Positions 3,856 to 14,587 of a stretch of 64,000 nucleotides of DNA are shown piece after piece; the first letter of the stretch is position 1; each line of letters begins with the position of its first letter. This DNA comes from an uncultured Pseudomonadota bacterium (GTDB lineage: Bacteria > Pseudomonadota > Alphaproteobacteria > Acetobacterales > Acetobacteraceae): contig CAVXSO010000004.1 of NCBI GenBank assembly GCA_963764465.1, forward strand, positions 110,494 to 174,493, given 5' to 3'. The notes under the pieces were generated by a model, which was given only the letters and a program-made list of their open reading frames with translations, searched no databases and was not told where the DNA came from. The translations under genes and the position numbers were made by a program.

Positions 3856-6138
3856 TTGCCGGTTCCTGATACGTCACGCTATGTCCCGAGGAACACGGTC
3901 TTGGACTCAATGCCGCCCGCCGCTGGCTCCATCGACCCCGCTGCCGCGGATCCACGAGAGCGGCTCGAGGTGCGCGTGCTGGCGCTCATCGAGGCGGCGC
4001 GGTGGCACGGTGTCGACCTCGATCGCGACGAGTTGCGCATCCCTTCCTCCGGATCGGTGGCGCCCGCGCTGCTGGTGGAATGGCTGCGTGGCGCGGGGCT
4101 GTGGGCGCGCGCCTCCCGGTTCTCCTGGAAGCACCTCGTCGCCACCCAGTCCGCCGGTCCCGTCGTGCTGCTGCTCGAGGACGGTTCCGCCGCGCTGATG
4201 GTGCGCGCCGATCCCGCGCGCAATGTCGTCTGGCTCAAGAACCCGGCCTCCGCCTTCGACGATGGCGGCGTGCCCGTGGACGAGCTTCGCCTCACGCAGC
4301 TGTGGAAGGGCAACGTCATCCTGCTGCGCCCGGAGCGGGGCGCGAACGAGGACAACGCCCCGTTCACCCTGGGCTGGGTCGCGCGCATCGTCTGGCGTGA
4401 GAAAAAGACGCTGCGCGACATCTGTGTCGGCTCGATCGTGCTGTCGGTCCTGGCAATCCTGCCGCCGCTGCTGGTGATGGTGGTGGTGGACAAGGTGGTT
4501 ACCTACCAGTCCGGCTCCACGCTGCTCATGCTGACGCTGATCCTGGTCGCGGCGGCAGCCTACGAGACCTATCTCGGCTTCGCCCGGCGCGAGCTGATCC
4601 TGGTCGTGGCGACGCGCATGGACGCGCGCATCGGCCTGCACATCTTCCGCCGCCTGCTCGGCCTGTCGATCGACTTTTTCGAGAAGAACCAGACCGGCGC
4701 CATCCTCTACAAGCTGGGTCAGTTCGCGAAGATCCGTGAGTTCCTCACCGGCAAGCTGCTGGCCACCGTGCTCGACCTGGTCACGCTCGCGGTGCTGATT
4801 CCCTTCCTCTACTGGCTCGACCCGGCGCTCACCTGGCTCACGGTCGCCGCCGGCGTGGTGATCGCGCTCATCATCATCATCTGCCTTCCGCGCGTGCGCC
4901 GCACCTTCTCCGAGTGGATGAAGGCGGAGGTCGAGAAGAGCAACGTGATGGTCGAGAGCGTCGCCGGCATCCGCACGGTGAAGTCGCTGGCGCTCGAGCC
5001 GCAGCAGCGCGAGCTGTGGGACCAGCGCCTGGCGAAGGCGGGGCTGTGGCAACAGGAACTGGGCCGCGCCAGCAACGTGCCGTCGACCCTCGTCACGCCG
5101 TTCGAGAATTTCATGAACCGGGGCGTGCTGCTGCTCGGCGCCTATTTCGCGCTGCACGGCGACGCCGCGACGCTGGGTTCGCTCGTCGCCTTCATGATGC
5201 TCTCCGGCCGCGTCGCGACGCCGCTGGTCGGCCTGGCACGGCTGACGGAGGAATACGAATACGCCCGCGCCGCCGTGGGCATCGTCGCCGAGGTACTGAA
5301 CAACCGGCCGGAGGTGGTGAACCCCGGCGCCGGCGTGCGTCCGCGGCTCGAGGGCGCGGTGCGGTTCCAGGACGTGGACTTCGCCTATCCCGGCACTCGG
5401 ACCAAGGCGCTGCAGGAAGTCTCGTTCGAGATTCCGGCCGGCACCACGCTGGGCCTGGTCGGGCGCTCCGGCTCCGGCAAGTCGACGGTCACAAGGCTGC
5501 TGCAGGGGATCAACCGGGAGTACGAAGGTCAGATCAAGCTCGACGGCACCGATCTGCGCGAGATCAACCTCGCGCATCTGCGCCGCAGCTTCGGCGTGGT
5601 GCTGCAGGAGAACTTCCTCTTCCGCGGCACCATCCGCGAGAACATCATCGCGGGCCGGCCTGGCCTCACGCTCAACGATGCGATCCGCGCCGCACGCCTC
5701 GCCGGGGCGGAAGAGTTCATCGAGCGCATGCCGCTCGGCTACGAGACCTGGATCGAGGAAGGCTCGCCCAATCTCTCCGGTGGACAGCGCCAGCGCCTCG
5801 CGATCGCGCGCGCGCTGATCCACGACCCGCGGATCCTCATCCTCGACGAGGCGACGAGCGCGCTCGACCCCGAGAGCGAGGCGCTGGTCAACGCCAATAT
5901 CCGGCGGATCGCGCATGGGCGGACGATGCTGATCGTCTCGCACCGGCTCTCGTCCCTGGTGGAATGCGACCAGATCCTGGTGCTCGACCAGGGCAAGGTC
6001 ATGGATATCGGGCCGCACAGTGTGCTGGTGGATCGCTGCCCGGTGTATCGTCAGCTCTGGCTGCAGCAGAACCGGCACATGATGGAGACGGGCCGCGGGC
6101 CGCAGCCGGCCGCGATCGTCGCACGCAACGAGGGCTGA
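3856..6138 (+). CDS. Type I secretion system ABC permease/ATPase with an N-terminal C39-like (Cys-less) domain
   Basis: 760 aa. About 150 aa of N-terminal peptidase-C39-like domain lack a catalytic Cys. Six-TM ABC membrane domain follows, then Walker A GRSGSGKST, signature LSGGQRQRLAIARAL and Walker B ILILDEATSALD. TTG start at 3856 is preceded by AGGGGA; ATG at 3910 is an alternative. Confidence 0.9.
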   Translation: MPVPDTSRYVPRNTVLDSMPPAAGSIDPAAADPRERLEVRVLALIEAARWHGVDLDRDELRIPSSGSVAPALLVEWLRGAGLWARASRFSWKHLVATQSAGPVVLLLEDGSAALMVRADPARNVVWLKNPASAFDDGGVPVDELRLTQLWKGNVILLRPERGANEDNAPFTLGWVARIVWREKKTLRDICVGSIVLSVLAILPPLLVMVVVDKVVTYQSGSTLLMLTLILVAAAAYETYLGFARRELILVVATRMDARIGLHIFRRLLGLSIDFFEKNQTGAILYKLGQFAKIREFLTGKLLATVLDLVTLAVLIPFLYWLDPALTWLTVAAGVVIALIIIICLPRVRRTFSEWMKAEVEKSNVMVESVAGIRTVKSLALEPQQRELWDQRLAKAGLWQQELGRASNVPSTLVTPFENFMNRGVLLLGAYFALHGDAATLGSLVAFMMLSGRVATPLVGLARLTEEYEYARAAVGIVAEVLNNRPEVVNPGAGVRPRLEGAVRFQDVDFAYPGTRTKALQEVSFEIPAGTTLGLVGRSGSGKSTVTRLLQGINREYEGQIKLDGTDLREINLAHLRRSFGVVLQENFLFRGTIRENIIAGRPGLTLNDAIRAARLAGAEEFIERMPLGYETWIEEGSPNLSGGQRQRLAIARALIHDPRILILDEATSALDPESEALVNANIRRIAHGRTMLIVSHRLSSLVECDQILVLDQGKVMDIGPHSVLVDRCPVYRQLWLQQNRHMMETGRGPQPAAIVARNEG

Positions 6139-6141
6139 GCG

Positions 6142-13201: not shown

Positions 13202-13213
13202 TCCGCGGCGCCG

Positions 13214-14587
13214 TTGCGTTACCTCTTCGTTCACCAGAATTTCCCGGGTCAGTTCCTCCACCTGATCCGCGGGCTGCTGGCCGAGGGCGGGCACGAGATC
13301 ATGTTCATCTCGGAGCCCAACACCAACCAGATCGGGGGCGTGCGCCGCGTCGTCTACCACCTGCCCGAGTACGCGCAGGAACCGATCCATCCTCACGCGC
13401 GCGAATGGGATCGCGCGGTACGGCGCGCCGAGCAGGTGGCGGGTGTCGCGCTCAACCTGAAGTCGCTCGGGTTTCAGCCCGACATCATCATCGGTCACCA
13501 TGGCTGGGGCGAACTGCTCGACCTCAAGCATGTCTTCCCGAATGTGCCCATCCTCGGATATTTCGAGTTTTACTACAGCCAGACTGGCGCGGATGTCGGG
13601 TTCGACCCGGAGTTCCCGGCCGATGATGCCATCCGCCTGCGCATCACCAGCATGAACCAGATCAACCATGCGGCGATCGCGCTGGGCGAACACGGGCAGA
13701 GTCCCACGCAATGGCAACGCACGCGCTATCCCGAATGGGCGCGCGGCGGCATCCGGCTACTGCGGGAAGGCGTGCGGCTCGATGACCTGGCGCCGGAGGC
13801 AGCGGCGCGGCGTGCGCGTCTCGCGATCAAGGATTTCGTCGTGGGCCCGCGCGACAAGCTGGTAACCTACGTCGTGCGCAACCTCGAGCCGTATCGCGGC
13901 TATCACACCATGATGCGCGCCCTGCCGTCGTTGCTGAAGCGCAAGGATGTCAAGGTGGTGATGGTTGGCGGCGACGAGGTGAGCTACGGCGCGCGCCTCG
14001 CAACCGGTTCCTGGCGCGATCATTACCTCAAGGAAATGGAAGGCAAGTACGACGCGAGCCGCGTGCTGCTGCCCGGCCAGGTGCCGTACGACGTCTATCG
14101 CAGCCTGCTCAAGCGCTCGGACGCGCATGTCTACCTCACCTACCCGTTCGTCGTCTCCTGGTCGCTCAGGGAGGCGATGGCGGCGGGCTGTGCCATCGTC
14201 GCCGCCGATGTGGAGCCGGTGCGCGAGTTCGTCACCGATCGCGAGACCGGTTTGCTGACGCCGGCGCTCGACTCCGAAAGGCTTGCGGGCAACGTTCTCG
14301 GCCTGCTGGAGGACCGGCACCGCGCGGATGCGCTGCGCCACGGCGCGCGCGCCTGGGCGGAGAAGCATCTGCGCATGGAGGATTACCTCGCCGCCTACCG
14401 TGCGCTGATCGGCGAGATCACCGGGATCGAGGGGCCGCCGCGCGTCACCAACGCTCGCGAGCTTCCCGCCACGGCAAAGCCGCGCCCTCCTGCCGCGCGC
14501 AAGCCGAAGCCCGCCAAGACCGCGGCCAAATCCAAGGTGGCGCCATCTTCGGCGCGGCGCCGCCCGCCTCCTTCGGCGCGTCGTTGA
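13214..14587 (+). CDS. GT-B fold glycosyltransferase (GT4/group 1-like) with a basic Lys/Pro/Ala-rich C-terminal tail
   Basis: 457 aa starting MRYLFVHQNFPGQFLHLIRGLLAEGGHEIMFI, then KVVMVGGDEVSYG and LTYPFVVSWSLREAMAAGCAIVA (an EX7E-like region). TTG start at 13214. The tail is [36 protein letters not shown]. Confidence 0.8.
   Translation: MRYLFVHQNFPGQFLHLIRGLLAEGGHEIMFISEPNTNQIGGVRRVVYHLPEYAQEPIHPHAREWDRAVRRAEQVAGVALNLKSLGFQPDIIIGHHGWGELLDLKHVFPNVPILGYFEFYYSQTGADVGFDPEFPADDAIRLRITSMNQINHAAIALGEHGQSPTQWQRTRYPEWARGGIRLLREGVRLDDLAPEAAARRARLAIKDFVVGPRDKLVTYVVRNLEPYRGYHTMMRALPSLLKRKDVKVVMVGGDEVSYGARLATGSWRDHYLKEMEGKYDASRVLLPGQVPYDVYRSLLKRSDAHVYLTYPFVVSWSLREAMAAGCAIVAADVEPVREFVTDRETGLLTPALDSERLAGNVLGLLEDRHRADALRHGARAWAEKHLRMEDYLAAYRALIGEITGIEGPPRVTNARELPATAKPRPPAARKPKPAKTAAKSKVAPSSARRRPPPSARR

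What the first reader, a model, noticed from the sequence alone, without database searches (positions are those of the whole stretch)
3856..14587. Type I secretion pair embedded in a protein-glycosylation-like island with no RTX-type substrate
Seen: one co-directional block with short gaps of 3-62 nt contains:
- an ABC exporter with a Cys-less C39-like N-domain
- a HlyD adaptor
- a 593-aa Sel1-repeat protein
- a 960-aa TPR-GT2-GT-B enzyme
- a 288-aa unknown protein
- a GT4 enzyme

No ORF has GGxGxD nonapeptide repeats, a double-glycine leader peptide or an outer-membrane factor.

Established: C39-like-domain ABC exporters of the HlyB type handle large unfolded substrates with C-terminal signals. 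TPR-containing glycosyltransferases are typically protein-directed (OGT-like, flagellin-modifying enzymes). Some T1SS export S-layer or polysaccharide-processing proteins.

Inference: this may be a dedicated system that glycosylates and exports a non-RTX protein. Candidate substrates are the signal-less 288-aa protein or the Sel1 protein. Alternatively it couples a secreted protein to a surface glycan.
Basis: partly seen in the sequence, partly recalled or inferred. Interest (0 to 1): 0.6.

Follow-up and report, generated by a model that had tools for sequence, protein, structure and literature searches.

The report
Secretion pump operon wired to glycosyltransferases

Summary
Six co-directional genes at 3856-14587 encode an HlyB-class ABC exporter with a dead C39-like domain, an HlyD adaptor, a signal-less Sel1 protein, a TPR-GT2-GT-B enzyme, a 288-aa ChW-like protein (p288) and a GT4.

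The order is kept in 65 of 67 long Acetobacteraceae loci. The pump and p288 are present or absent together in 36 sampled genomes of the family.

The block has two modules:
- **Pump module:** ABC-HlyD-Sel1 also occurs without the glycosyltransferases, on Gluconacetobacter and Mesorhizobium plasmids.
- **Glycan module:** TPR-GT, p288 and GT4.

In three Azospirillum species and one other alphaproteobacterium, p288 is fused to the C-terminus of the TPR-GT. It is therefore an enzyme partner, not the cargo. In those four genomes a small, signal-less RTX-like protein sits directly upstream of the fusion gene.

This genome has one HlyD-type adaptor, a TolC elsewhere, and two unlinked RTX-like proteins. 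One of them lies beside a GT4 paralogue.

Most likely the pump exports such a protein, and the glycan module either decorates it or builds the glycan it works with. Which of the two applies is unresolved. I found no paper on this operon. The nearest studied analogue is the Sinorhizobium EPS II ExpD1/ExpD2/ExpE1 system.

The parts
3856..6138 (+). HlyB-class ABC exporter (760 aa from TTG 3856; an in-frame ATG lies at 3910). Its N-terminal C39-like domain (about residues 36-165, window ~3961-4350) is catalytically dead.
   Evidence: Pfam ABC_membrane and ABC_tran. TIGR01846 matches at 546 bits over residues 42-739, below the 725 cut-off. The ortholog profile aligns to HlyB 6-238 at E 1e-25 and to the PCAT1 C39 domain, with neither catalytic Cys nor His. 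No Cys in residues 1-189.
6142..7554 (+). HlyD-family type I secretion periplasmic adaptor (470 aa) with one N-terminal membrane helix at residues 46-76. It is the only such adaptor in the genome.
   Evidence: TIGR01843 at 362 bits against a 208 cut-off. One hydrophobic segment. tblastn of the whole genome finds no second copy.
7588..9369 (+). Sel1-repeat protein (593 aa) with no signal peptide or membrane helix. It is probably a cytoplasmic third component of this pump subtype.
   Evidence: Pfam Sel1, 9 stretches, E 1e-63. No hydrophobic segment. Homologues follow ABC-HlyD in Azospirillum, Mesorhizobium (47% identity), G. diazotrophicus pGDIA01 and MAG OZ255631.1.
9386..12271 (+). Multidomain cytoplasmic glycosyltransferase (961 aa): TPR at residues 1-125, two beta domains at 130-255, GT-A/GT2 at 318-595, and GT-B with a conserved 4-Cys motif at 599-955.
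   Evidence: Pfam TPR_14, Glycos_transf_2 and Glyco_trans_1_4. AlphaFold2 model with pLDDT 83.9 and pTM 0.76. Fold matches to GT-A and GT-B enzymes, including capsule polymerases. Azospirillum homologues at 41% identity sit in O-antigen-type clusters.
12335..13201 (+). p288: two beta-sandwich domains (residues 14-120 and 143-271, the second with two ChW-like repeats) joined by an Ala/Pro linker, plus a basic C-terminal tail. It is a partner or subunit of the TPR-GT enzyme.
   Evidence: Pfam ChW at E 4e-6 on the C-terminal half. AlphaFold2 pLDDT 84.6, with no solved-structure match. Fused to the TPR-GT in four out-group genomes. Sources call it only 'hypothetical' or 'Hydrophobic W protein'.
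13214..14587 (+). GT4-family glycosyltransferase (457 aa) with a PF12000 N-terminal half and a basic C-terminal tail.
   Evidence: Pfam Glyco_trans_4_3 (E 5e-52) and Glycos_transf_1. Conserved as the last gene of the operon. A 47% paralogue lies at C2:322736-323983 next to an RTX-like protein.

Best explanation
The block is one conserved operon built from two modules.

**Module 1, the pump.** This is a type I secretion pump of the HlyB class: an ABC exporter with a catalytically dead C39-like domain, an HlyD adaptor and a cytoplasmic Sel1-repeat accessory. It uses a TolC encoded elsewhere.

**Module 2, the glycan builder.** This is a cytoplasmic set of three proteins:
- a TPR/beta-domain/GT2/GT-B enzyme;
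- p288, its ChW-type beta-sandwich partner, which is a domain of the same polypeptide in Azospirillum and in one other alphaproteobacterium;
- a PF12000-type GT4.

**The cargo.** It is not in the operon. In relatives, a small signal-less RTX-like calcium-binding-type protein is the first gene of the glycan module. In this genome the best homologue is an orphan gene at C7:1111326-1112729. A second RTX-like protein lies beside a GT4 paralogue on C2.

**Likely mechanism.** The pump exports such RTX-like protein(s). The glycan module either glycosylates them in the cytoplasm before export or makes the glycan they must act with at the surface, as in ExpE1/EPS II.

**What is shown:** gene content, the conserved order, the co-inheritance, the dead C39 domain, the fusion, and the upstream RTX-like gene in relatives.

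**What is inferred:** the identity of the cargo, and any sugar-to-protein link.
For: - **Conserved order.** 65 of 67 long loci keep the six-gene order, with unconserved flanks.
- **Co-inheritance.** Of 36 sampled genomes of the family, 27 have both p288 and an orthologous HlyD (at least 43% identity) and 9 have neither.
- **The pump is a unit of its own.** ABC-HlyD-Sel1/TPR stands without the glycosyltransferases on pGDIA01 and on a Mesorhizobium ciceri plasmid. In the latter it sits behind an acidic Gly-rich DUF4347 protein.
- **The two modules persist through rearrangement.** They lie convergent in MAG OZ255631.1. They sit on the same plasmid in all 11 Azospirillaceae plasmids that carry the GT homologue.
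- **Fusion.** TPR-GT and p288 form one 1322-1396-aa reading frame in A. brasilense, A. thermophilum, A. argentinense and OZ255631.1.
- **Upstream RTX-like gene.** In all four of those genomes an RTX-like, signal-less protein of 299-342 aa lies directly upstream and co-directional, while the other neighbours differ.
- **Own-genome candidates.** The best match to that protein is the 468-aa RTX protein on C7, at 34-36% identity.
- **Single pump.** The genome has one HlyD-type adaptor and a TolC above the family cut-off.
- **GT4 paralogue.** It is flanked by a Hint_2 protein and a 760-aa 'GNGNDT'-repeat protein, an arrangement conserved within the genus.
- **Cargo type.** By established knowledge, a dead C39-like domain is the hallmark of exporters of RTX-type proteins.
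Against: - **No nearby cargo gene.** No RTX-like gene of this family lies within 8-10 kb of the operon in about 140 Acetobacteraceae loci.
- **Weak co-occurrence.** A profile of the RTX-like C-terminal domain scores E<=1e-13 in 13 of 27 operon-positive genomes and 1 of 9 operon-negative genomes. One complete operon-positive genome (G033) has no match.
- **Patchy ortholog.** The specific C7 ortholog, including its N-terminal domain, is found in only a few genera.
- **No glycosylation evidence.** Nothing shows that any protein is glycosylated.
- **Polysaccharide signal.** The GT homologues in Azospirillaceae sit among Wzm/Wzt, rfb and methyltransferase genes. That points to polysaccharide synthesis rather than protein decoration.
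- **Model cut-off.** The ABC exporter scores below the curated HlyB cut-off.
Confidence: 0.5

Rival explanations
1. The pump exports the glycan itself. The three glycosyltransferase domains, with p288 as a glycan-binding partner, polymerise a polysaccharide or glycolipid in the cytoplasm. The ABC-HlyD-TolC channel carries it out. Any RTX-like protein is at most a co-factor, as has been discussed for EPS II.
For: - The only transporter kept with the glycan module across the family is this pump.
- GT homologues are typical multidomain enzymes of O-antigen-type clusters. They are sometimes fused to methyltransferases.
- The model's fold matches include capsule polymerases.
- An HlyD-like protein plus TolC is required for mixed-linkage glucan production (PMC13438883).
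Against: - The ABC exporter carries a C39-like domain, which in studied systems binds protein cargo (for the domain; the role is from established knowledge).
- The same pump trio occurs with no glycosyltransferase beside it but with acidic, Cys-free, signal-less candidate cargos.
- Azospirillaceae have Wzm/Wzt next to the GT homologues and still keep the trio.
- Wzm is present in most of the family whether or not the operon is there.
Confidence: 0.2
2. One reading: the 288-aa protein or the Sel1 protein is the glycosylated, non-RTX cargo of the pump.
For: - Both lack Sec or Tat signals and membrane helices.
- ChW repeats are known from extracellular proteins of Gram-positive bacteria (Pfam description).
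- p288 has an Ala/Pro linker of the kind often found in surface proteins.
- From my own knowledge, repeat proteins such as Ank and TPR proteins have been reported as type I substrates in Rickettsiales.
Against: - p288 is part of the glycosyltransferase polypeptide in four out-group genomes.
- Its family has a median pI of 8.5, about 4 Cys with invariant positions, and a strongly basic C-terminal tail (+6.5 net charge in the last 50 residues).
- The candidate cargos next to related pumps are acidic and Cys-free.
- Sel1 stays with the pump where there is no glycan module.
Confidence: 0.1
3. The two modules are merely neighbours. A general-purpose type I pump happens to sit beside an unrelated glycan gene set.
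For: The pump trio can exist alone. This genome has only one such pump for all its RTX-like proteins.
Against: - The two are present or absent together in all 36 sampled genomes of the family.
- The order is fixed in 65 of 67 loci despite variable flanks.
- The association survives rearrangement in Azospirillaceae and in OZ255631.1.
Confidence: 0.05

Closest known systems
Sinorhizobium meliloti EPS II (galactoglucan) exp cluster: ExpD1 (ABC), ExpD2 (adaptor), secreted Ca-binding ExpE1, and the ExpA/C/E glycosyltransferases
   Same: A type I secretion pair is embedded among glycosyltransferase genes. A small secreted calcium-binding-type protein belongs to the system, here seen only in the Azospirillum and OZ255631.1 relatives. 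In S. meliloti, glycan production depends on the pump (PMC1403797).
   Different: - ExpD1/ExpD2 are described as PrtD/PrtE-like. From my own knowledge that class lacks the C39-like domain found here.
- No Sel1 component, TPR-GT2-GT-B enzyme or ChW-type partner is described for it.
- In Acetobacteraceae the cargo gene is not in the cluster.
- I did not compare sequences with pSymB directly.
E. coli haemolysin system HlyB-HlyD-TolC, with HlyC modifying the cargo before export
   Same: The ABC exporter has a dead C39-like domain, aligned to HlyB 6-238 at E 1e-25. There is an HlyD adaptor, and TolC is encoded elsewhere. A cytoplasmic cargo-modifying enzyme in the same operon would be the analogous logic.
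   Different: There is no cargo gene in the operon, and there is an extra Sel1 component. The His kept in the HlyB domain is also lost here. The co-encoded enzymes are glycosyltransferases, not an acyltransferase. The ABC exporter scores below the TIGR01846 cut-off.
Caulobacter RsaA S-layer export (RsaD/RsaE) next to O-antigen genes, and Rhizobium leguminosarum PrsDE with PlyA/PlyB/Rap proteins
   Same: Type I secreted RTX-type proteins function on or with a surface polysaccharide, and the pump genes are co-located with glycan genes. This is from my own knowledge for RsaA, and from PMC1403797 and PMC9298526 for PrsDE.
   Different: Those cargos are identified and, as far as I know, are not glycosylated by the neighbouring enzymes. 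There is no Sel1 partner and no TPR-GT/ChW module.
ABC-transporter-dependent O-polysaccharide assembly (multidomain polymerases with methyltransferase terminators and Wzm/Wzt)
   Same: The TPR-GT homologues of Azospirillum and Niveispirillum lie among Wzm/Wzt, rfbABCD, GT4 and SAM-methyltransferase genes. The enzyme has two glycosyltransferase domains, as such polymerases do.
   Different: The Acetobacteraceae operon has no Wzm/Wzt, terminator or sugar-nucleotide genes. Its only transporter is the type I pump.

Membership tests
Type I secretion system, HlyB class (C39-like-domain exporters) | ABC exporter with an N-terminal C39-like domain that lacks the catalytic cysteine | tested here: met
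   The profile aligns to HlyB 6-238 (E 1e-25) and to the PCAT1 C39 domain. The Cys position holds Val or Glu and the His position holds Ala. No Cys in residues 1-189.
Type I secretion system, HlyB class (C39-like-domain exporters) | HlyD-family periplasmic adaptor encoded next to the ABC exporter | tested here: met
   TIGR01843 at 362 bits against a 208.65 cut-off, with a 3-nt gap after the ABC gene.
Type I secretion system, HlyB class (C39-like-domain exporters) | TolC-type outer-membrane factor available | tested here: met
   TIGR01844 at 310.7 bits, above its cut-off, at G000:C6:290166-291416. It is not in the window.
Type I secretion system, HlyB class (C39-like-domain exporters) | RTX-type cargo with a C-terminal signal | tested here: inconclusive
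   None in the operon. Candidates lie at C7:1111326-1112729 and C2:320065-322413. An RTX-like gene is adjacent to the GT module in relatives. Export was not tested.
Type I secretion system, HlyB class (C39-like-domain exporters) | Score above the curated HlyB subfamily cut-off | tested here: not met
   TIGR01846 at 546.3 bits against a 725.55 cut-off; TIGR03375 at 476 against 693. It is a distinct subgroup.
Peptidase-containing ABC exporters of double-glycine peptides (PCAT) | Catalytic Cys and His in the C39 domain, and a double-glycine leader cargo | tested here: not met
   Both catalytic positions are replaced. There is no small leader-peptide ORF in the block. TIGR01193 scores 287 against a 524 cut-off.
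S. meliloti EPS II-type secretion-dependent glycan system | Type I pair inside a glycosyltransferase cluster | tested here: met
S. meliloti EPS II-type secretion-dependent glycan system | Secreted Ca-binding protein encoded in the cluster | tested here: not met
   Absent from the window block and from about 140 Acetobacteraceae loci. Present in the Azospirillum and OZ255631.1 versions.
S. meliloti EPS II-type secretion-dependent glycan system | Glycan production depends on the pump | not testable with these tools
   Needs mutants.
TPR-bearing protein glycosyltransferases (OGT/GT41, HMW1C, FlmG type) | A GT41, or a GT-B catalytic domain of those families, joined to TPRs | tested here: not met
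   Pfam finds GT2 plus GT4-like halves and no GT41. Fold matches are generic GT-A and GT-B, including polysaccharide polymerases.
TPR-bearing protein glycosyltransferases (OGT/GT41, HMW1C, FlmG type) | A protein acceptor | not testable with these tools
   Only genetic adjacency to RTX-like genes in relatives.
ABC-transporter-dependent O-polysaccharide polymerase modules | Multidomain glycosyltransferase encoded with Wzm/Wzt and chain terminators | tested here: inconclusive
   True of the Azospirillaceae homologues. Not true of the window operon. Wzm/Wzt lie far away at C7:833334-834955.

The most novel reading that the evidence does not exclude
This would be a glycosylation-coupled type I secretion system. 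The TPR-GT2-GT-B/ChW/GT4 complex would build a glycan on an RTX-like protein in the cytoplasm. The Sel1 protein would hand the modified, still unfolded cargo to the dead C39-like domain of the exporter. This would be a post-translational modification step for type I cargo that I did not find described, and a fourth fixed pump component, spread through Acetobacteraceae and Azospirillaceae.
Probability: 0.25. Interest if true: 0.8.

Novelty: new variant of a known kind. Interest (0 to 1): 0.55.

Why it matters
Type I secretion is usually described as three parts plus a cargo gene. Here a fourth conserved part (Sel1) and a glycan-building module are fixed to the pump. This holds across a family that includes vinegar, cellulose-producing, plant-associated and insect-gut bacteria (Acetobacter, Gluconacetobacter, Acidiphilium, Rhodopila).

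The fusion and the upstream RTX-like gene in Azospirillum give a concrete, testable wiring diagram. They bear on an old open question raised by Sinorhizobium EPS II: why does production of some surface glycans depend on a protein-secretion pump? Azospirillum brasilense Sp7 and Gluconacetobacter diazotrophicus PAl5 are tractable laboratory strains in which to answer it.

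Tried and rejected
- **Fold search for p288.** Foldseek against solved structures gave no match at E<=0.001, only weak beta-sandwich hits, so the fold gave no function.
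- **Single-sequence searches of the ABC N-terminus.** Both the solved-structure and Pfam searches found nothing. Only the ortholog profile worked.
- **Fold search for the TPR-GT model.** It hit both polypeptide GalNAc-transferases and polysaccharide polymerases, so it does not identify the acceptor.
- **Co-occurrence of the C7 RTX protein with the operon.** The result is blurred by Gly-rich repeats. A C-terminal-domain profile gave only weak enrichment.
- **Wzm presence.** It is independent of the operon, so it is uninformative.
- **C-terminal composition.** LDAVTSIF-rich and KHPMWC-poor scoring does not separate Sel1 from the enzymes.
- **Downstream neighbours.** None is shared by more than 11 of about 50 loci.
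- **The GT4 paralogue in Acidisphaera.** It sits among housekeeping genes, so its RTX adjacency is genus-level only.
- **The p288 paralogue in G017.** It has no informative neighbours.
- **Rhizobium plasmid pumps at 35% identity.** They lack Sel1 and are a different subtype.
- **Promoter scan.** No consensus site was found.
- **Literature searches.** No paper on this operon turned up.
- **pSymB.** A direct sequence comparison with the S. meliloti exp genes was not done.

Full report
**What is there.** The window is 70% G+C and belongs to an Acetobacteraceae genome (G000 contig C4). Third-position G+C and family searches define six co-directional genes:
- an ABC exporter (3856-6138);
- an HlyD adaptor (6142-7554);
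- a Sel1-repeat protein (7588-9369);
- a TPR-GT2-GT-B enzyme (9386-12271, TTG start);
- a 288-aa protein, p288 (12335-13201);
- a GT4 with a PF12000 N-half (13214-14587).

The intergenic gaps are 3, 33, 16, 63 and 12 nt. The next genes (DUF169 and an aminotransferase-class gene) converge on the block. Sel1, the TPR-GT, p288 and GT4 have no convincing membrane helix or signal peptide.

**The C39-like domain.** Single-sequence searches of the ABC N-terminus found nothing. A profile of 18 orthologous N-termini aligned to HlyB residues 6-238 (E 1e-25) and to the C39 domain of the bacteriocin exporter PCAT1.
- At the catalytic Cys position the family has Val or Glu.
- At the His position it has Ala ('DGSAAL').
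- The window protein has no Cys before residue 190.

The domain is therefore a doubly dead C39 fold of the HlyB kind. The whole protein matches the HlyB subfamily model end to end but below its cut-off (546 against 725 bits). I read that as a distinct subgroup.

**Conservation.** p288 homologues occur in 27 of 36 sampled genomes of the family and in none of 24 genomes sampled from the other families of the class.
- An orthologous HlyD (at least 43% identity) is present in exactly those 27 genomes. The other 9 have none, or only distant paralogues at 31% identity or less.
- In 67 loci of at least 15 kb from many genera (Acetobacter, Acidiphilium, Rhodopila, Acidisphaera and others), 65 keep the order ABC-HlyD-Sel1-TPR-GT-p288-GT4.
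- The flanks are not conserved.
- More than 580 loci in species-representative genomes encode a p288 relative.
- Public sources name it only 'hypothetical' or 'Hydrophobic W protein'.

**Two modules.** Annotated plasmids of other alphaproteobacteria separate the block into two parts.
- *The pump stands alone.* On G. diazotrophicus PAl5 pGDIA01 and on a Mesorhizobium ciceri plasmid, ABC-HlyD is followed by a Sel1/TPR protein and no glycosyltransferase module. The Mesorhizobium Sel1 homologue is 47% identical over its full length.
- *Its neighbours look like cargo.* In Mesorhizobium the pump is preceded by an acidic, Gly-rich DUF4347 protein. On pGDIA01 it is followed by three acidic, Cys-poor, signal-less proteins.
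- *Azospirillum keeps both on one plasmid.* In A. brasilense Sp7 plasmid p5 the ABC-HlyD-SEL1 trio lies about 15 kb from a TPR-GT homologue.
- *The pattern is general in Azospirillaceae.* All 11 Azospirillaceae plasmids with the GT homologue also carry the HlyD ortholog. Niveispirillum has the same parts scattered within one glycan cluster.
- *A further out-group keeps them adjacent.* In MAG OZ255631.1, from another family, ABC-HlyD-Sel1 converges on TPR-GT/p288-GT4.

Pumps at about 35% identity on Rhizobium plasmids lack Sel1 and belong to another subtype. I therefore read Sel1 as a fixed accessory of this pump subtype. An earlier agent's note (e1-1411597) reached the same view from other genomes. 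My support for it is the four contexts above.

**p288 is an enzyme partner, not the cargo.** In A. brasilense, A. thermophilum and A. argentinense a single coding sequence of 1380-1396 aa contains the TPR-GT (40-41% identity, query residues 2-951 in A. brasilense). It is followed in frame by p288 (31-34% identity). There is no internal stop. OZ255631.1 has the same fusion as one 1322-aa frame.

The p288 family has these properties:
- a median pI of 8.5 and about four Cys, some invariant;
- a highly conserved 'FCGSRGMALP' motif;
- a variable tail ending in Arg/Lys runs, with +6.5 net charge in the last 50 residues.

The model shows two beta-sandwich domains joined by an Ala/Pro linker (pLDDT 84.6). 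It has no solved relative. The C-terminal domain carries two ChW-like repeats. A glycan- or acceptor-binding role beside the enzyme is my inference.

**Where the cargo probably is.** In all four fusion-bearing genomes the gene directly upstream and co-directional encodes a protein of 299-342 aa. It is signal-less and Gly/Thr/Ser-rich with RTX-like repeats, and it has a shared C-terminal region. The other neighbours differ between species: Wzm/Wzt in Sp7, pseBC in A. thermophilum, galE/repA in A. argentinense. This confirms, by my own check, the lead in note e1-3986928.

In the window's genome:
- there is only one HlyD-type adaptor;
- a TolC above its cut-off lies on contig C6;
- two clear RTX-like proteins exist.

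The 468-aa protein at C7:1111326-1112729 is the best homologue of the Azospirillum proteins (34-36% identity). It is an orphan among unrelated genes. The 760-aa 'GNGNDT'-repeat protein at C2:320065-322413 lies in a row with a Hint_2 protein and a 47% paralogue of the operon's GT4. That row is conserved in the genus.

Within Acetobacteraceae, however, no such gene lies near the operon. Co-occurrence of the C-terminal domain with the operon is only weakly enriched.

**What the enzymes make.** The TPR-GT model (pLDDT 83.9) has five parts: a TPR array, two small beta domains, a GT-A domain and a GT-B domain with a conserved four-Cys motif. Fold matches include polypeptide GalNAc-transferases, capsule polymerases (the 8qoy multienzyme, K4CP, PmHS2) and MshA/BshA. 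The fold does not identify the acceptor.

The Azospirillaceae homologues sit among rfbABCD, GDP-sugar genes, Wzm/Wzt and methyltransferases. That is typical of polysaccharide assembly. Yet the conserved five-gene core there begins with the RTX-like protein, followed by the fusion GT, a methyltransferase, the GT4 and a second methyltransferase. I cannot decide between glycosylation of the cargo and a glycan that the cargo works with.

**Comparison with known systems.** The nearest studied analogue is the S. meliloti EPS II cluster. There ExpD1/ExpD2 secrete the Ca-binding ExpE1 and are needed for galactoglucan production (PMC1403797). Four earlier notes on the same operon in other genomes named it too.

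The differences from EPS II are the C39-like domain, the Sel1 component, the TPR-GT/ChW pair and the unlinked cargo. HlyD-like proteins plus TolC can also serve glucan production (PMC13438883), which keeps the glycan-export rival alive. I found no paper on this operon.

**Limits.**
- No complex prediction was available.
- I did not compare the proteins with pSymB directly.

**Verdict.** This is an unstudied variant of glycan-linked type I secretion with a clear route to testing.

Noticed in passing
G000:C2:316000-331000 (locus L115; not in the window): A row on one strand holds a Hint_2-domain protein with 'GxGTL' repeats, a 47% paralogue of the operon's GT4, and a 760-aa signal-less 'GNGNDT'-repeat protein. 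The row is conserved in two other genomes of the genus (L116, L117) but not in Acidisphaera.
   Followed up: partly
window 13147-13201 and 14447-14587: Both p288 and GT4 end in disordered, strongly basic tails. Across the p288 family the tail almost always ends in RRR, RRKA or KRR. The purpose is unknown; membrane or partner docking is a guess.
   Followed up: partly
window 11540-11630 (TPR-GT residues ~720-745): The GT-B domain has an invariant four-cysteine motif (C720, C733, C742, C745, 'YCGEPD..AC..C'). It looks like a metal-binding insert and has low model confidence at residues 723-732.
   Followed up: no
locus L196 (G. diazotrophicus pGDIA01) 15950-19445: Three acidic (pI 4.0-4.5), Cys-poor, Ser/Thr/Ala-rich, signal-less hypothetical proteins lie beside a stand-alone ABC-HlyD-TPR/Sel1 trio on a small mobilizable plasmid. 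They are candidate non-RTX cargos of this pump subtype.
   Followed up: partly
locus L114 (G174:C108) 4242-6691: In a genome of another family, a distant p288-like gene is followed by a gene with RTX repeats and DUF4214 domains. This is another adjacency of a glycan-module part with an RTX-type protein.
   Followed up: no
G020:C1:1106967-1107275: A partial Wzm-like reading frame lies about 2.5 kb downstream of that genome's copy of the six-gene operon. This is the only case I saw of a Wzm-type gene near the operon within the family.
   Followed up: no
window 17786-32084: A ShlB-type two-partner secretion gene, a 1959-aa frame with no family match, a TPR-CHAT protein and a Ser/Thr kinase follow downstream. 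They are separate from this finding and are already covered by other notes.
   Followed up: no
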